Shown: in pieces, positions 1-26,995 of the stretch
How positions within the stretch are numbered: position 1 is the first letter of the stretch
Layout of the letters: the number at the start of each line of letters is the position of its first letter
Source of the DNA: a virus
Lineage: Duplodnaviria > Heunggongvirae > Uroviricota > Caudoviricetes
IMG/VR virus record: IMGVR_UViG_2724679542_000005
Strand: one strand, 5' to 3'
Length of the DNA stretch: 26,995 nt
The notes under the pieces: generated by a model
What the model was told of the DNA's origin: nothing
Seen by the model: the letters and a program-made list of their open reading frames with translations, nothing else
Databases searched by the model: none
Position numbers and translations under genes: made by a program

Positions 1-185
1 TTCATGGCCATATCAATGATTTTCTGGTGCGTACCGGGCTGAGAGGCGGTGTAAGTGAACTGTAGTTGCCATGTTTTACGGCAATGAGAGCAGAGATAGC
101 GCTGATGTCCGGCAGTGCTTTTGCCGTTACGCACCACGCCTTCAGTAGCGGAGCAGGAAGGACATCTGATGGAAATGGAAGCCAC
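1..185 (-). CDS. insA: IS1 InsA, 5' part only (GTG start at 185, gene runs off the window)
   Basis: Mirror image of the right-hand insA (26500-26775); same 55-nt offset from the IS1 end; GTG start inferred by symmetry. Confidence 0.8.
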
Positions 186-240
186 GCAAGCACCTTAAAA
201 TCACCATCATACACTAAATCAGTAAGTTGGCAGCATTACC
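1..240 (-). mobile_element. IS1 insertion sequence, partial (cut by window start); terminal inverted repeat ends at 240
   Basis: Reverse complement of 218-240 is the IS1 terminal repeat (ggtaatgctgccaacttactgat); region 1-240 is the reverse complement of 26445-26684, judged from identical ORF-track translations. Confidence 0.9.
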
Positions 241-260
241 CTTTATGCCATGTCCTTATT

Positions 261-289
261 GACCCCGTATATTACGGGGTCGTTTTTGT
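261..289 (+). terminator. Hairpin gaccccgta/tacggggtc followed by GTTTTTGTG; candidate intrinsic terminator just outside IS1
   Basis: Perfect 9-bp inverted repeat with a 3-nt loop and a T-run, seen directly. Confidence 0.4.
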
Positions 290-606
290 GCGGAATTAAA
301 AACGATATCCTGCTGAGAACATAAACACCCACGGATCGAGGCGTACGCTATCATGTTGCTGTGCACCGCCCAGCTTATAATTGGCGGTGGTATCGATATC
401 CATGTACCAGACTGACATGTTTTAAAAAATGCAATAAGACATTGTATCTGAAAGAAAAAACAGGATTTTGAGGCGCTTTTTTATACCGTTTTTCCGTGTT
501 TTTAACTGCCTGATTTTATTGAAATCTTTTTTAGTTTTGCAGAAAGGATTTTTTGCTCGATCGCTTTAATTTTATACATTCCTGATAACGGAAATTTTTT
601 TGCCCG

Positions 607-1797: not shown

Positions 1798-2013
1798 AAC
1801 CGCAGCACGTTCCTGCATACGACGTGTCTGCGGCATAATCCCAATGATTACTCCCTGACAGGATTTGCAGGCCACTCAATATCAGGTGCAGTTGATGTAT
1901 CAACACGATTCAACAATACCCGATATTTATTCCATGCCTCCAGCAACGATCTTTCTTCCTCCGTTGCGATTTCCAGATCTACAGCATCCTGCAGTGGCGC
2001 AATATACTCACTG
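1798..2013. repeat. Direct repeat copy A (~216 bp): tfa 3' end plus downstream hairpin
   Basis: About 90% identical by eye to 2848-3062, including the ccgcagcacgt...acgtg(t)ctgcgg hairpin and the tfa C-terminal coding sequence. Confidence 0.85.
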
Positions 2014-2117
2014 AATTCCTGGATGTAGAACTGTGTGGTGACGGTCTTCCAGCCATTCGGCTCCTGCTGTATCGAAGCATACCAGGCTATTTCAATATCG
2101 CTATGCTGCGGCAGCAT
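1848..2117 (-). pseudogene. Tail fibre assembly gene fragment (C-terminal ~55 aa near-identical to Tfa, diverged N-terminal part, no full-length gene)
   Basis: ORF-track 89-aa product ends ...[51 protein letters not shown], almost identical to the Tfa C-terminus at 2897-3481. Confidence 0.7.
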
Positions 2118-2173: not shown

Positions 2174-2185
2174 ACGGTGAAATCA

Positions 2186-2842
2186 ATGAAAAAAAACACA
2201 GATGATGGGGCTAAAATTTACACACCACTTACCCTAAAGCTTTATGACTGGTGGGTTTTGGGAGTATCAAATCGGCTTGCATGGGGATGTCCTACAAAGG
2301 AACACCTTCTTCCACACTTTCTGGAACATGTAGGTAACAACCATCTGGATATTGGTGTTGGAACTGGGTTTTACCTTACTCACGTACCTGAGAGTAGTCT
2401 GATATCTTTAATGGATTTGAACGAAGCTAGCCTGAACGCGGCATCTACAAGGGCTGGGGAATCAAAAATTAAACATAAAATTAGCCATGATGTTTTTGAA
2501 CCTTATCCCGCGGCGTTACATGGTCAATTTGATTCCATTTCCATGTTTTACCTTCTTCACTGCCTGCCTGGAAATATATCTACAAAAAGCTGTGTAATAC
2601 GCAATGCGGCGCAGGCCTTAACTGACGATGGAACTCTATACGGAGCCACAATTCTTGGCGATGGAGTTGTGCACAATAGCTTCGGTCAAAAACTGATGCG
2701 CATTTACAATCAGAAAGGCATCTTTTCAAACACAAAAGATTCCGAAGAAGGCTTAACACATATACTCTCAGAGCATTTCGAGAATGTTAAAACCAAGGTT
2801 CAAGGTACTGTAGTAATGTTTTCCGCTTCAGGGAAAAAATAG
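2186..2842 (+). CDS. Putative class I SAM-dependent methyltransferase (low-GC cargo gene; substrate unknown)
   Basis: ORF track 2177-2842 (GTG); ATG at 2186. Glycine-rich SAM-binding motif I LDIGVGTG; no DPPY/NPPY or PC-type DNA methyltransferase motifs. Lower GC than the structural genes by eye. Arrangement recalls tfaD-ybcY-tfaX of the E. coli K-12 DLP12 prophage (from memory). Confidence 0.7.
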   Translation: MKKNTDDGAKIYTPLTLKLYDWWVLGVSNRLAWGCPTKEHLLPHFLEHVGNNHLDIGVGTGFYLTHVPESSLISLMDLNEASLNAASTRAGESKIKHKISHDVFEPYPAALHGQFDSISMFYLLHCLPGNISTKSCVIRNAAQALTDDGTLYGATILGDGVVHNSFGQKLMRIYNQKGIFSNTKDSEEGLTHILSEHFENVKTKVQGTVVMFSASGKK

Positions 2843-2847
2843 CATCC

Positions 2848-3062
2848 AACCGCAGCACGTTCTTGCTTAAGACGTGCTGCGGCATAATCCCAATGATTAC
2901 TCCCTGACAGGGTTCGTAGGCCACTCAATATCAGGTGCAGTTGATGTATCAACACGGTTCAGCAACACCCGATATTTTTTCCAGGCTTCCAGCAATGAGG
3001 TTTCTTCCTCCGTTGCGATTTCCAGATCTACAGCATCCTGAAGTGGCGCAATATGCTCACTG
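2848..3062. repeat. Direct repeat copy B (~215 bp): 3' end of intact tfa plus downstream hairpin
   Basis: See copy A. Confidence 0.85.
2850..2882. terminator. Long hairpin (ccgcagcacgt ... acgtgctgcgg) between the methyltransferase stop and the tfa stop; possible bidirectional terminator
   Basis: 11-bp perfect inverted repeat seen directly; the T-run on the minus strand is about 10 nt away, so termination efficiency is uncertain. Confidence 0.4.
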
Positions 3063-3481
3063 GCTACCTGCATCAGGCTGTTTTTTGTTTCTTCCGCCTC
3101 CCGGATCCGGAACAGTTTTTCTGCTTCTGCATCTTTCACCCAGGCTGTGCCGTTCCACTTCTGAAACTCCCCTTCCGGCGATAACCAGGTAACATTTTCC
3201 GGTAACGGACCGAGTTCAGAAATAAATAACGCGTCCCCTGACGCTACGTCATAAACCGTTTTACCCCGATGGTCTTCAACGAGATGCCACGATGCCTCAT
3301 CACTGTTGAAAACAGCCACGAAGCCTGCCGGAATATCTGGCGGTGCAATATCGGTACTGTTTGCTGGCAGACCTGTATGAGGCGGAATATATGCATCACC
3401 TTCACCAATAAATTCATTAGTTCCGGCCAGCAGATTATAAATTTTTATGGTCCGTGGTTGTTCACTCATTCTGAATGCCAT
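2897..3481 (-). CDS. tfa: Tail fibre assembly protein Tfa
   Basis: 194-aa ORF-track product matches lambda Tfa from memory; start ATG overlaps the stf stop (TAATG). Confidence 0.9.
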
Positions 3482-15597: not shown

Positions 15598-16428
15598 ACC
15601 GGACTCCTCCTGCGATCCCTTCTGATACTGTCATCAGCATTACGTCATCCTCCGTCATGTCCGCCACATCCGGGGAAGCGGGGATAACTTCATTCCCGTC
15701 CGGGCCAAAGCGGACGCCTCCGGCAAGCCCTGCCGCTTTCTGCATCAGCACATCATCTTCAGGCTCTTCGTCAGCCTCGCGCCGGTTCAGCAGACTGAAA
15801 TCCAGCGGATGCATATCCGGATCGCTGAAAAACAGGCTGAGTACGGTGTACGTCAGCCCGGAAAAGTGCATATCCAGCAGAACATCATGAAAATAATGGA
15901 TACTGTAAAAGCGGTGCCAGTCGGCATACTCCGTGGATGACATCCCGGCAAGCATGGCGCGCCAGTCGGGTCGCCCCATCTCACGCGCCAGTTTCAGGGC
16001 AAAACTCAGCTCACCGTCGAACACTTTCCCGCAGAAACAGGCTCTGCTGGCCCGGCGTCATCTGCCTGTTCAGGTGCATCATTCACAACAAACTCAGACA
16101 TACCGGACAGACGCATTACCACATTTTCAGCCTGAGCAATTGCCTCTGTGGGCCAGGTGGTAAGCACTTCCTGCTCAATTTGTTTAACGGCTTCATTCAT
16201 GGACGGCATCTTTGTCTTCTGCGGATGGCTATGCCACAGGGACATCGCCACCAGAAAAGCACCGGTTCTGACGAGATCTTCCACGCTCACCTGTCGATTG
16301 AGACTGGATCCCGCCTGTTCTGCCTGTCGTTTCAGCAGGGCGAGATGCTCAATTCGCTGCAGGGCTGACAGTTCAGAAAGCGTGACGCTCACACCGTTAT
16401 ATTCAAATGATTCGGTTTTCAGGAACAT
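15590..16428 (-). CDS. G-T: Tail assembly chaperone G-T fusion made by a programmed -1 frameshift (G alone is 16006-16428)
   Basis: G ORF (140 aa) and the overlapping T frame; slippery heptamer GGGAAAG sits at the end of G in the G frame. Confidence 0.85.
16006..16428 (-). CDS. G: Tail assembly chaperone G (zero-frame product)
   Basis: 140-aa ORF ending ...SAGKCSTVS, as lambda gpG from memory. Confidence 0.9.
   Translation of the reverse strand: MFLKTESFEYNGVSVTLSELSALQRIEHLALLKRQAEQAGSSLNRQVSVEDLVRTGAFLVAMSLWHSHPQKTKMPSMNEAVKQIEQEVLTTWPTEAIAQAENVVMRLSGMSEFVVNDAPEQADDAGPAEPVSAGKCSTVS
16024..16030 (-). promoter_or_regulatory. Slippery heptamer G GGA AAG for the G-T -1 ribosomal frameshift
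   Basis: Reverse complement of ctttccc at 16024-16030; in the G frame it reads GCG GGA AAG. Confidence 0.85.
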
Positions 16429-21718: not shown

Positions 21719-25399
<3,681 letters not shown>

Positions 25400-25425
<26 letters not shown>

Positions 25426-25945
25426 TCAGCAACCCCGGTATCAGTTCATCCAGCGCGGCTGCTTTGTTCATGGCTTTGATGATATCCCGTTTCAGGAAAT
25501 CAACATGTCGGTTTTCCAGTTCCGGAAAACGCCGCTGCACCGACAGGGGGATCCCGTCGAGAATACTGGCAATTTCACCTGCGATCCGCGACAGCACGAA
25601 AGTACAGAATGCGGTTTCCACCACTTCAGCTGAGTCTCTGGCATTCTTCAGTTCCTGTGCGTCGGCCTGCGCACGCGTAAGTCGATGGCGTTCGTACTCA
25701 ATAGTCCCTGGCTGGAGATCTGCCTCGCTGGCCTGGCGCAGTTCTTCAACCTCCCGGCGCAGCTTTTCGTTCTCAATTTCAGCATCCCTTTCGGCATACC
25801 ATTTTATAACGGCGGCAGAGTCATAAAGCACCTCATTACCCTTGCCACCGCCTCGCAGAACGGGCATTCCCTGTTCCTGCCAGTTCTGAATGGTACGGAT
25901 ACTCGCACCGAAAATGTCAGCCAGCTGCTTTTTGTTGACTTCCAT
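25400..25945 (-). CDS. nu1: Terminase small subunit Nu1 (181 aa)
   Basis: MEVNKKQLADIFGASIRTIQNWQEQGMPVL... matches lambda Nu1; 26-nt overlap with A; starts 177 nt from cosN as in lambda. Confidence 0.95.
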
Positions 25946-26122
25946 TGTTCATTCCACGGCCAAAAACAGAGAAAGGAAACGACAAAGGCCCAAAAGTTCG
26001 TTTTCAGCACCTGTCGTTTCCTTTCTCTTCAGGGGGTATTTTAAATAAAAACATTAAGTTACGACGAAGAAGAACGGAAACGCCTTAAACCGGAAAATTT
26101 TCATAAATAGCGAAAACCCGCG
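25946..26122. promoter_or_regulatory. cosB: terminase (Nu1) binding region with three R-type elements
   Basis: GGAAACG at 25975-25981 and 26077-26083, CGTTTCC at 26015-26021; position between cosN and nu1. Confidence 0.7.
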
Positions 26123-26134
26123 AGGTCGCCGCCC
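26123..26134. other. cosN: 12-nt cohesive end site (reverse complement GGGCGGCGACCT)
   Basis: Exact reverse complement of the lambda cohesive end, read directly. Confidence 0.9.
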
Positions 26135-26357
26135 CGTAACGGTCTGGATCACCGGAAAGGACCCGCCAACGACTTTCGCGTGCAGGCATTAAAAATTTTG
26201 CAGTTCCATGCCTAGTTGAAACCTCGATTTCTATAACATCCAATTTTGTAAATTTAGATATAGCTCAACTTTTCCCAATGTTTTCAAGTGTATAAAAACA
26301 ATTGGCGTTACGCCATAACACTATACTTAGGATAAGTAAAGATTTTAAGGAGTTTTA

Positions 26358-26444
26358 ATGAGTCAACATCAATATTATCCACAGCTGAAATGGAAGCCTG
26401 CTGAATATGAATCTCTGATGCTTTTAGATCAAACTACGCTCTCT
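26358..26444 (+). pseudogene. 5' end (29 codons) of an AT-rich gene disrupted by IS1; product unknown
   Basis: AAGGAG 5 nt before the ATG at 26358; reading frame runs straight into the IS1 terminal repeat at 26445; peptide MSQHQYYPQLKWKPAEYESLMLLDQTTLS not recognised. Confidence 0.6.
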
Positions 26445-26499
26445 GGTAATGCTGCCAACTTACTGATTTAGTGTATGATGGTGATTTTAAGGTGCTTGC

Positions 26500-26775
26500 G
26501 TGGCTTCCATTTCCATCAGATGTCCTTCCTGCTCCGCTACTGAAGGCGTGGTGCGTAACGGCAAAAGCACTGCCGGACATCAGCGCTATCTCTGCTCTCA
26601 TTGCCGTAAAACATGGCAACTACAGTTCACTTACACCGCCTCTCAGCCCGGTACGCACCAGAAAATCATTGATATGGCCATGAATGGCGTCGGATGTCGC
26701 GCCAGTGCACGCATTATGGGCGTTGGCCTCAACACGGTTTTACGTCACTTAAAAAACTCAGGCCGCAGTCGGTAA
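26500..26775 (+). CDS. insA: IS1 InsA (91 aa, GTG start)
   Basis: ORF-track product [37 protein letters not shown]... is IS1 InsA; A6C frameshift motif at 26751-26757. Confidence 0.95.
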
Positions 26776-26995
26776 CCTCGCGCATACAACCGGGCAGTGA
26801 TGTGATTGTCTGCGCTGAAATGGACGAACAGTGGGGCTACGTCGGTGCTAAATCACGTCAGCGCTGGCTGTTTTACGCGTATGACAGGATACGGAGGACG
26901 GTTGTGGCGCACGTCTTCGGTGAACGCACTCTGGCCACACTGGAGCGTCTTCTGAGCCTGCTGCCGGCCTTTGAGGTCGTGGTATGGATGACGGA
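26694..26995 (+). CDS. insB: IS1 InsB, 5' part (runs off the window); expressed as InsAB' by -1 frameshift
   Basis: Frame translated by hand from ATG 26694: ...[40 protein letters not shown]..., matching InsB from memory. Confidence 0.85.

What the first reader, a model, noticed from the sequence alone, without database searches (positions are those of the whole stretch)
26135..26444. AT-rich gene next to cos, cut after 29 codons by IS1
An ORF with a strong ribosome-binding site (AAGGAG, 5-nt spacer, ATG at 26358) starts 224 bp from cosN, reads opposite to the late operon in the position bor occupies in lambda, and is interrupted exactly at the IS1 terminal repeat (26445). The upstream region is AT-rich with several -10-like TATAAA elements. 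The 29-residue peptide is not one I recognise, so the intact gene elsewhere may be an uncharacterised moron.
Basis: seen in the sequence. Interest (0 to 1): 0.45.

Follow-up and report, generated by a model that had tools for sequence, protein, structure and literature searches.

The report
IS1-broken phage P4 beta-family gene
The short AT-rich gene next to the prophage packaging site is the first 29 codons of a known gene type (the "beta" protein of satellite phage P4, part of an anti-phage module), cut by an IS1 insertion; it is a dead remnant, not a new gene.

Summary
AAGGAG, a 5-nt spacer and ATG 26358 lie 224 bp from the lambda-type cohesive end. The frame runs 29 codons to the IS1 terminal repeat at 26445.

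The intact gene exists. The same DNA (99.7-100% identical in the listed hits) continues into a 355-aa "beta family protein" (Pfam PF14350) in 127 of 5,426 complete E. coli genomes. There it converges on, and overlaps by 59 bp, a 206-aa "sce7726 family" gene (Pfam Phage_P4_cII). The pair fills the slot between cosQ and Rz that holds iss(bor)+ylcI in the closest prophages.

This is the beta/cII pair of satellite phage P4, which is also cos-adjacent, but without gop. P4 gop-beta-cII is a validated abortive-infection system. Predicted structures give a TIM barrel for beta and a PD-(D/E)xK nuclease with an intact E-D-ExK motif for the partner. The convergent pair recurs in Acinetobacter, Burkholderia, Klebsiella, Vibrio and actinophage elements.

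In this window only 8% of beta survives, so it cannot function. The window is a whole draft contig that ends inside IS1 at both ends, so the rest of the gene cannot be seen.

"Unrecognised or uncharacterised" is only partly right. Interest is low to modest.

The parts
26123..26134 (.). cosN cohesive-end sequence (reverse complement of lambda GGGCGGCGACCT)
   Evidence: Read. The adjacent genes are Phage_Nu1 and GpA terminase. The lambda cos sequence itself is recalled from my own knowledge.
26158..26164 (.). cosQ-type heptamer (AGGACCC, the reverse complement of GGGTCCT). This is the last conserved phage backbone before the cargo.
   Evidence: Homology to the iss/ylcI-type prophage of E. coli H10 (L007) ends at window 26165. 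Best whole-module matches end at 26166-26169. The identity of cosQ is from my own knowledge of lambda.
26166..26357 (+). AT-rich leader of the cargo cassette, about 33% G+C. It presumably holds the beta promoter, which is not identified.
   Evidence: Composition. 99.7-100% identical in intact loci. Only weak -10-like hexamers at 26232 and 26291. No Rfam family.
26347..26352 (+). Shine-Dalgarno AAGGAG, 5 nt before the ATG
26358..26444 (+). Codons 1-29 of a P4 beta-family gene (PF14350), which is 355 codons when intact. This is the pseudogene remnant.
   Evidence: Identical to the start of WP_106905866.1 (L002); the 55989 locus (WP_000077906.1, L001) matches the 309-nt query at 99.7%. Pfam match of the intact protein.
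26358..26471 (+). 37-aa fusion ORF: 29 beta codons plus 8 codons read from the IS1 end, then a stop
   Evidence: On record only on this contig.
26445..26995 (+). IS1, partial: the insA-side terminal repeat (26445-26467), insA (26500-26775) and the start of insB. It is cut by the contig end.
   Evidence: Matching E. coli DNA is annotated "IS1 family transposase".
1..240 (-). Second IS1 copy, with the same insA-side end in inverted orientation. It is cut by the other contig end.
   Evidence: 240/240 identical to 26445-26684 after reverse complementing. It lies directly after the yciE stop codon.
25400..25945 (-). nu1 (terminase small subunit), the first late gene on the other side of cos. Context only.
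   Evidence: PF07471.

Best explanation
Window 26358-26444 is the 5' remnant (codons 1-29 of 355) of a gene of the phage-P4 beta family, inactivated by an IS1 insertion.

Shown:
- In related lambdoid prophages the intact gene is one half of a 2.4-kb, low-G+C cargo cassette. The cassette sits directly after cosQ and extends into the 3' part of Rz.
- The cassette holds beta (355 aa) reading away from cos. It converges on, and overlaps by 59 bp, a 206-aa sce7726/P4-cII-family gene that reads with the late operon.
- This is the beta/cII pair of satellite P4, where it is also next to cos, but without the membrane toxin gop.
- Beta is predicted with high confidence to be a TIM barrel. Invariant Asp residues and other conserved polar residues sit at or near strand ends.
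- The partner is predicted to be a PD-(D/E)xK nuclease with an intact E29 / D40 / E52-x-K54 motif.

Inferred:
- The intact pair is a self-contained anti-phage (abortive-infection or exclusion) module. The nuclease would be the effector. Beta would be an enzymatic sensor or regulator that licenses or restrains it.
- Convergent overlapping transcription may balance the two genes.

In this window beta is dead. Only strand 1 and the first short helices of the barrel remain, fused to 8 IS1-encoded residues. At most a promoter, a ribosome-binding site and a 37-aa peptide survive. Whether the rest of beta and the nuclease gene still lie beyond the IS1 cannot be seen, because the contig ends inside IS1.
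For: - The 309-nt query is 99.7-100% identical to intact loci in the listed hits, among 127 of 5,426 complete E. coli genomes that match it.
- Beta matches PF14350 at E 7e-56 over profile positions 1-342. The partner matches NF033832 sce7726 at 184 bits against a cut-off of 70.
- PADLOC models "beta" (6.8e-10), "cll" (3.8e-31) and PD-Lambda-2_C (6e-32) all hit.
- The P4 map is cos, gop, beta (355 aa), then convergent cII annotated as sce7726 family.
- Pairwise, P4 cII is 27% identical (E 9e-19) and P4 beta 21% over full length (E 7e-7). No gop homologue was found.
- AlphaFold2 gives pLDDT 91.8 for beta and 89.1 for the partner.
- Conserved catalytic-type residues are listed.
- The same convergent pair occurs in Rac-SA53, Gordonia and Mycolicibacterium phages, and in Acinetobacter, Burkholderia, Klebsiella, Vibrio and enterobacterial elements.
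- The slot holds iss+ylcI in the closest prophages.
- P4 gop-beta-cII protects against lambda and P1 (PMC9122126). A phage gene triggers it to kill the cell (bioRxiv 10.1101/2023.04.06.535777).
- The beta-like PD-lambda-2C is required for defence but not for neutralising the toxin (PMC9519451).
Against: - No experiment on a gop-less beta/cII pair was found, so the defence role is extrapolated from three-gene systems whose known toxins (gop; PD-lambda-2B) are absent here.
- The TIM-barrel matches are generic, so no chemistry can be assigned to beta.
- No convincing promoter was found upstream of beta.
- If beta were an antitoxin to the nuclease, an IS1 knock-out should be lethal unless the nuclease is also lost. 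Recurrent broken beta alleles in E. coli and Shigella argue against a strict antitoxin role, or else imply loss of the whole module.
- The state of the partner gene in this strain is unknown.
Confidence: 0.8

Rival explanations
1. The beta/cII pair is a restriction-modification-like system and not an abortive-infection system. Beta would be a TIM-barrel enzyme that modifies DNA or a nucleotide, in the manner of the TGT/DpdA base-exchange enzymes. The PD-(D/E)xK partner would cut DNA lacking that mark.
Against: Many unrelated TIM barrels score as high or higher, with identity of 10% or less. In P4, beta behaves as an antidote to gop. Knocking out a modification gene while keeping the nuclease should be lethal, yet broken beta alleles are frequent.
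Confidence: 0.1
2. The intact pair serves the phage's own life cycle and is not a defence against other phages. It might act in the lysogeny decision or in DNA processing near cos. P4 cII carries a lysogeny-type gene name, and some homologues are annotated "regulatory protein".
For: The gene name and the "regulatory protein" annotations. The position flush against cosQ. The nuclease gene is co-oriented with the late operon.
Against: The cassette is dispensable and replaceable: the closest prophages carry iss+ylcI there instead. In other elements the pair sits in unrelated places, next to the repressor, the integrase or a primase. P4 gop-beta-cII lies in P4's non-essential region and has measured anti-phage activity.
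Confidence: 0.07
3. The truncation is an assembly artefact. The gene would be intact in the real genome, and the contig was wrongly extended into a repeat.
For: The window is a complete short-read contig (LAJR01000047.1) that ends in IS1 at both ends.
Against: The switch falls exactly at the first base of the IS1 terminal inverted repeat. 551 bp of IS1 follow in one contig. Assemblers normally break inside repeats and do not invent junctions at element termini.
Confidence: 0.03

Closest known systems
Satellite phage P4 gop-beta-cII locus (DefenseFinder/PADLOC 'Gop_beta_cll')
   Same: Beta proteins of identical length (355 aa) in the same Pfam family. The partner belongs to the same family as P4 cII (RefSeq calls P4 cII "sce7726 family"). 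Beta and cII converge. The cassette lies within about 250 bp of cos.
   Different: There is no gop in the cassettes examined (tblastn negative, and no room in the 224-bp leader). Sequence identity is only 21% for beta and 27% for cII. The genes overlap by 59 bp instead of being separated by a terminator. The host element is a lambda-like prophage, not a P4 satellite. In this window only 29 codons remain.
PD-lambda-2 (Vassallo et al. 2022), component C
   Same: The C-terminal 200 residues of the intact beta match the PD-Lambda-2_C models (E 6e-32). Component C is needed for defence but not to neutralise the toxin (PMC9519451).
   Different: No HigB-like A gene or Xre-peptidase B gene is annotated next to the cassette. 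The match covers only residues 141-344. The partner here is a nuclease-fold protein.
Lambda bor / E. coli iss plus ylcI (Rz-to-cos morons)
   Same: Same slot between Rz and cosQ, and the same orientation against the late operon.
   Different: No sequence similarity. Homology to those prophages stops at window 26165. They encode a lipoprotein and a small protein, not an enzyme pair.
[quoted passage not shown] 2022)
   Same: Variable cargo directly abutting the packaging site. The cargo is drawn from the same gene families.
   Different: That paper describes P2 and P4 elements. Here the element has a lambda-type cos and terminase.
MmcB-like / restriction-endonuclease-like PD-(D/E)xK nucleases (for the partner gene)
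   Different: Nuclease activity has not been shown. About 60 residues of C-terminal helices (126-182) are specific to the family.

Membership tests
Pfam PF14350 Beta_protein (P4 beta family) | Full-length match to the family profile above the gathering score | tested here: met
   The intact allele (L001 8223-9290) scores 190.6 bits against a cut-off of 27, residues 6-342 on profile positions 1-342. The window holds only residues 1-29 of it, identified by nucleotide identity to the intact alleles (100% in 18 listed genomes, 99.7% in 55989).
Pfam PF14350 Beta_protein (P4 beta family) | Complete TIM-barrel domain with the family's invariant residues (Y6, D77, D161, D239, W328, H336) | tested here: not met
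   In the window only Y6, P8, L10, K11, E16, A19 and L20 are retained. All barrel strands after the first are missing. The copy here is a pseudogene.
P4 gop-beta-cII defence system | gop toxin gene upstream of beta | tested here: not met
   tblastn of P4 gop against L001, L002 and L004 found nothing. Only 224 bp separate cos from the beta ATG, whereas gop needs 402 bp.
P4 gop-beta-cII defence system | beta and cII homologues adjacent and convergent | tested here: met
   This holds in the intact relatives L001, L002 and L014-L017. In the window itself the cII side is not visible.
P4 gop-beta-cII defence system | Protects against phage, or kills the cell on a phage trigger | not testable with these tools
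   Reported only for the three-gene P4/ECOR59 loci (PMC9122126; bioRxiv 10.1101/2023.04.06.535777).
PD-lambda-2 | HigB-like A gene and Xre-peptidase B gene next to the beta-like C gene | tested here: not met
   The annotated neighbours are cos/terminase on one side and sce7726 plus lysis genes on the other.
NCBIfam NF033832 sce7726 / Pfam PF26915 Phage_P4_cII (partner gene) | Profile match above the cut-off, plus the PD-(D/E)xK motif and fold | tested here: met
NCBIfam sce7725 family (the usual named partner of sce7726) | Profile match of the beta protein | tested here: not met
   No NCBIfam model matched the beta protein at E up to 0.01.
IS1 family insertion sequence | Terminal inverted repeat GGTAATG... 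followed by insA | tested here: met
   26445-26467 is the repeat and 26500-26775 is the 91-aa InsA ORF. Matching DNA in E. coli is annotated "IS1 family transposase". The target-site duplication cannot be tested because the other end is off the contig.
Lambda bor/iss | Sequence similarity to bor/iss | tested here: not met
   Similarity to the iss-bearing prophage ends at 26165. The intact protein is a PF14350 member.

The most novel reading that the evidence does not exclude
The gop-less, convergent and 3'-overlapping beta/cII pair may be an autonomous two-gene immune module of a kind not yet tested. A TIM-barrel enzyme (beta) would make, destroy or sense a small molecule or a DNA mark, and so control a PD-(D/E)xK nuclease. 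It has spread across Proteobacteria and actinophages. In lambda-like phages it would occupy a cosQ-flush cargo hotspot equivalent to the P2/P4 cos hotspots. The window would then record an IS1 knock-out of its regulatory half.
Probability: 0.4. Interest if true: 0.5.

Novelty: new member of a known kind. Interest (0 to 1): 0.25.

Why it matters
For this window it mainly settles the annotation. The orphan ORF is a beta-family pseudogene created by IS1, not a new gene.

More widely, it points to an untested two-gene relative of the P4 gop-beta-cII defence system. That relative is common: about 2% of complete E. coli genomes carry this allele, including Stx2 prophages, and beta spans 3,765 50%-identity clusters. 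In lambda-like prophages it sits flush against the packaging site. This suggests that cos-adjacent cargo hotspots are not limited to P2 and P4.

The frequent breakage of beta could help decide whether beta is an antitoxin or a sensor.

Tried and rejected
- Nucleotide search of sequenced phages with the region found nothing. Protein search of phages found only distant pairs.
- The IS1 junction was not found in any complete E. coli genome, so no resolved copy of this insertion could be read.
- I tried to reach the other side of the IS1 in the same assembly through exact-protein look-ups of the partner gene and of truncated beta forms. None came from GCA_001184065.1. The 316-aa form (L017) is a start-region change, not an IS insertion.
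- Sequence search of PDB chains gave only noise for both proteins.
- The promoter scan gave no convincing sigma-70 site on the + strand.
- The Rfam scan of 25900-26500 gave only sub-threshold miRNA noise over the cosB-side repeat.
- The Ghisotti 1990 P4 paper (PMC249035) is not held, so statements about gop/beta toxicity rest on how Rousset et al. cite it.
- I considered and rejected membership of PD-lambda-2, of the full gop-beta-cII system, and of bor/iss (see the membership tests).

Full report
**1. What is in the sequence**

The window carries a lambda-type late region on the minus strand. Terminase genes nu1 (25400-25945) and A (23500-25425) come first, followed by portal, head and tail genes.

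The reverse complement of the lambda cohesive end lies at 26123-26134. The cosQ-type heptamer AGGACCC lies at 26158-26164 (the lambda cos and cosQ sequences are from my own knowledge).

From 26166 the DNA turns AT-rich: 33% G+C for 26170-26357, against 54.8% for the window. AAGGAG (26347-26352), five bases and ATG 26358 open a frame that runs 29 codons to 26444.

At 26445 the IS1 terminal repeat GGTAATGCTGCCAACTTACTGAT begins. The 91-aa InsA ORF follows at 26500-26775. Matching DNA in E. coli is annotated "IS1 family transposase".

Four points need correcting:
- Codon 30 is GGT both in IS1 and in the uninterrupted gene, so the junction is ambiguous by 3 nt.
- There is only one TATAAA (26291) and one TATAAC (26232), and no acceptable sigma-70 promoter match on the + strand.
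- 26135-26165 is conserved cos DNA and not the gene's leader.
- No known RNA family matches the region.

**2. The window is a whole contig**

An exact look-up of the 37-aa fusion peptide finds a single record, LAJR01000047.1 of GCA_001184065.1. It is 26,995 bp long, which is the window itself.

Its other end (1-240, reverse complement) is the same IS1 end, identical at 240 of 240 positions. That copy is inserted directly after the yciE stop codon, beside an ompW remnant that marks the prophage boundary.

The 26.2-kb prophage arm is therefore bracketed by two inverted IS1 copies at which the short-read assembly broke. What lies beyond the right-hand IS1 cannot be read.

None of 5,426 complete E. 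coli genomes carries this junction. My attempts to reach the sister contig failed.

**3. The intact gene**

Window 26136-26444 matches 127 of 5,426 complete E. coli genomes. 111 of these are at least 99% identical, and 18 listed genomes are 100% identical. In every listed hit the match lies under a gene annotated "beta family protein".

In E. coli 55989 and in strain 2012C-4221 (an Stx2j prophage) the gene is 355 codons long. It converges on a 206-codon "sce7726 family protein" gene, with a 59-bp overlap of their 3' ends. The pair lies between cos and the lysis gene Rz.

No sequenced phage isolate carries this DNA.

The prophages most similar to the window's structural genes (about 97% identity over 24 kb) lose similarity at 26166-26169. 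They carry iss(bor) and ylcI in the slot instead. The other boundary of the swap lies inside the 3' part of Rz.

The cassette is therefore about 2.4 kb of low-G+C cargo (41%) placed flush against cosQ.

**4. Family assignment**

- The intact protein matches Pfam PF14350 Beta_protein end to end (E 7e-56).
- The partner matches NCBIfam sce7726 (184 bits against a cut-off of 70). Newer Pfam calls the partner's family PF26915 Phage_P4_cII.
- PADLOC's "beta" and "cll" models, and PD-Lambda-2_C, also match.
- The P4 genome reads cos, gop (247-648), beta (651-1718, 355 aa), then convergent cII (1746-2540). RefSeq now names that cII "sce7726 family".
- Pairwise, P4 cII is 27% identical (E 9e-19) and P4 beta 21% identical over its full length (E 7e-7). 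No gop homologue exists in the E. coli cassettes, and the 224-bp leader has no room for one.

**5. What is known about the relatives**

- P4 gop-beta-cII lies in the cos-adjacent hotspot of P4-like satellites. It protects against lambda and P1, and gop is toxic without beta (PMC9122126).
- A phage accessory gene, orf184, triggers it to kill the cell (bioRxiv 10.1101/2023.04.06.535777).
- In PD-lambda-2, the beta-like third component is required for defence but not for neutralising the toxin (PMC9519451).
- I found no report on a two-gene beta/cII module. Searches for sce7726, sce7725 and PF14350 returned only genome-annotation mentions or nothing.

**6. Structure-based inference**

Across 36 diverse members including P4 beta, these residues are invariant: Y6, P33, D77, P108, D161, P200, D239, G323, W328 and H336. 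K11, E16, R133, R216, E218, Y240 and Y263 are nearly invariant. Several of these sit at or near strand ends, which suggests an enzyme or a ligand-binding pocket. That last step is inference.

**7. The pair is a conserved module**

The same convergent arrangement was seen in the elements below. The 3' overlaps in the E. coli-type and Klebsiella cassettes complete the observed range of 11-59 bp.

| Element | Position or context | 3' overlap |
|---|---|---|
| Phage Rac-SA53 | early region, near hok | 41 bp |
| Gordonia and Mycolicibacterium phages | not examined | about 29-56 bp |
| Acinetobacter prophage | beside the repressor | 41 bp |
| Burkholderia | chromosomal locus | 56 bp |
| Enterobacterial island | primase-bearing | 44 bp |
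| Klebsiella prophages | again between lysis and terminase genes | 11 bp |
| Vibrio prophages | next to the integrase | none (4-nt gap) |

A profile search finds beta in 3,765 50%-identity clusters. The listed best matches are almost all about 350-370 aa and match over nearly their whole length.

The varied positions argue for a self-contained cassette and against a role in the host phage's own cycle.

**8. Best explanation**

The finding is the IS1-inactivated 5' end of a beta-family gene. Its intact form belongs to a gop-less beta/cII cargo module.

The most likely function of that module is inter-phage defence, with the nuclease as effector and beta as an enzymatic sensor or regulator. This is inferred and not shown.

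In the window only 29 of 355 residues survive. These form strand 1 and the first short helices of the barrel, fused to eight IS1-encoded residues, so this copy cannot work.

Broken beta alleles are common. One cluster holds 44 short sequences, and the listed members are 62-96-aa N-terminal beta fragments. C-terminal fragments of 234-324 aa also occur in E. coli and Shigella. This fits decay of dispensable cargo and argues against beta being a strictly essential antitoxin.

**9. Rivals**

Three rivals are kept at low weight, for the reasons given in their entries:
- a restriction-modification-like reading, with beta as a TGT/DpdA-like modifier;
- a role in the phage's own life cycle;
- an assembly artefact.

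**10. Verdict**

A moron cut by IS1 is correct. But the gene is a recognisable, annotated member of the P4 beta family and is one half of a pair.

Novelty is "new member of a known kind". Interest is low to modest (0.25). The worthwhile lead is the untested two-gene module and its position flush against cosQ, both of which lie outside this window.

Noticed in passing
window 1-240 and 26445-26995: The window is an entire draft contig (LAJR01000047.1). Both ends are the same insA-side end of IS1, identical at 240/240 positions and in inverted orientation. The 26.2-kb prophage arm is therefore bracketed by inverted IS1 copies. An IS1-mediated inversion or deletion cannot be excluded.
   Followed up: partly
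window 237-420; L006 2990-3190: The left IS1 sits directly after the yciE stop codon, beside a 3' remnant of ompW. The lambda-like prophage is therefore integrated in ompW, downstream of trpA-yciG-yciF-yciE.
   Followed up: partly
window 2177-2842 (+), 1848-2117 (-), 2897-3481 (-): A class I SAM-dependent methyltransferase gene reads against the tail-fibre genes. It lies between a full tail-fibre-assembly gene and a degenerate duplicate of that gene's 3' part. This looks like another moron-type insertion in the same prophage.
   Followed up: no
L001 9232-9290; L004 6539-6579; L008 4551-4591; L010 4605-4660; L011 4539-4582: The convergent beta and cII-like genes overlap at their 3' ends by about 11-59 bp in almost every element examined. 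The exceptions are P4 (28-nt spacer with a terminator) and Vibrio (4-nt gap). In E. coli the overlap encodes a C-terminal tail of the nuclease that is predicted to be disordered (residues 192-206, pLDDT below 50). Antisense or transcriptional interference is possible but untested.
   Followed up: partly
protein clusters: The beta gene is broken repeatedly in E. coli and Shigella. One cluster holds 44 short sequences whose listed members are N-terminal fragments of 62-96 aa. C-terminal fragments of 234-324 aa also occur, and some N- and C-terminal fragments have neighbouring accession numbers, which suggests they come from the same genomes. Truncated sce7726 forms of 79-193 aa also exist.
   Followed up: no
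L002 (NZ_CP027437.1) 15888-16309: In strain 2012C-4221 the identical beta/sce7726 cassette lies in an Stx2j-converting prophage, about 6 kb downstream of stxB2.
   Followed up: no
L004 (phage Rac-SA53) 5070-5835: Rac-SA53 has an annotated IS1 166 bp upstream of its own cII-like/beta pair. This is a second case of IS1 beside this module.
   Followed up: no
L001 10185-10235: A hairpin followed by a T-run (on the Rz strand: GGAAAATGCCTCGCAGATGCGGGGCATTTTTG) lies just downstream of Rz, between Rz and the nuclease gene. I read it by eye as a likely terminator. Q-antiterminated late transcription would presumably read through it into sce7726, antisense to beta.
   Followed up: no
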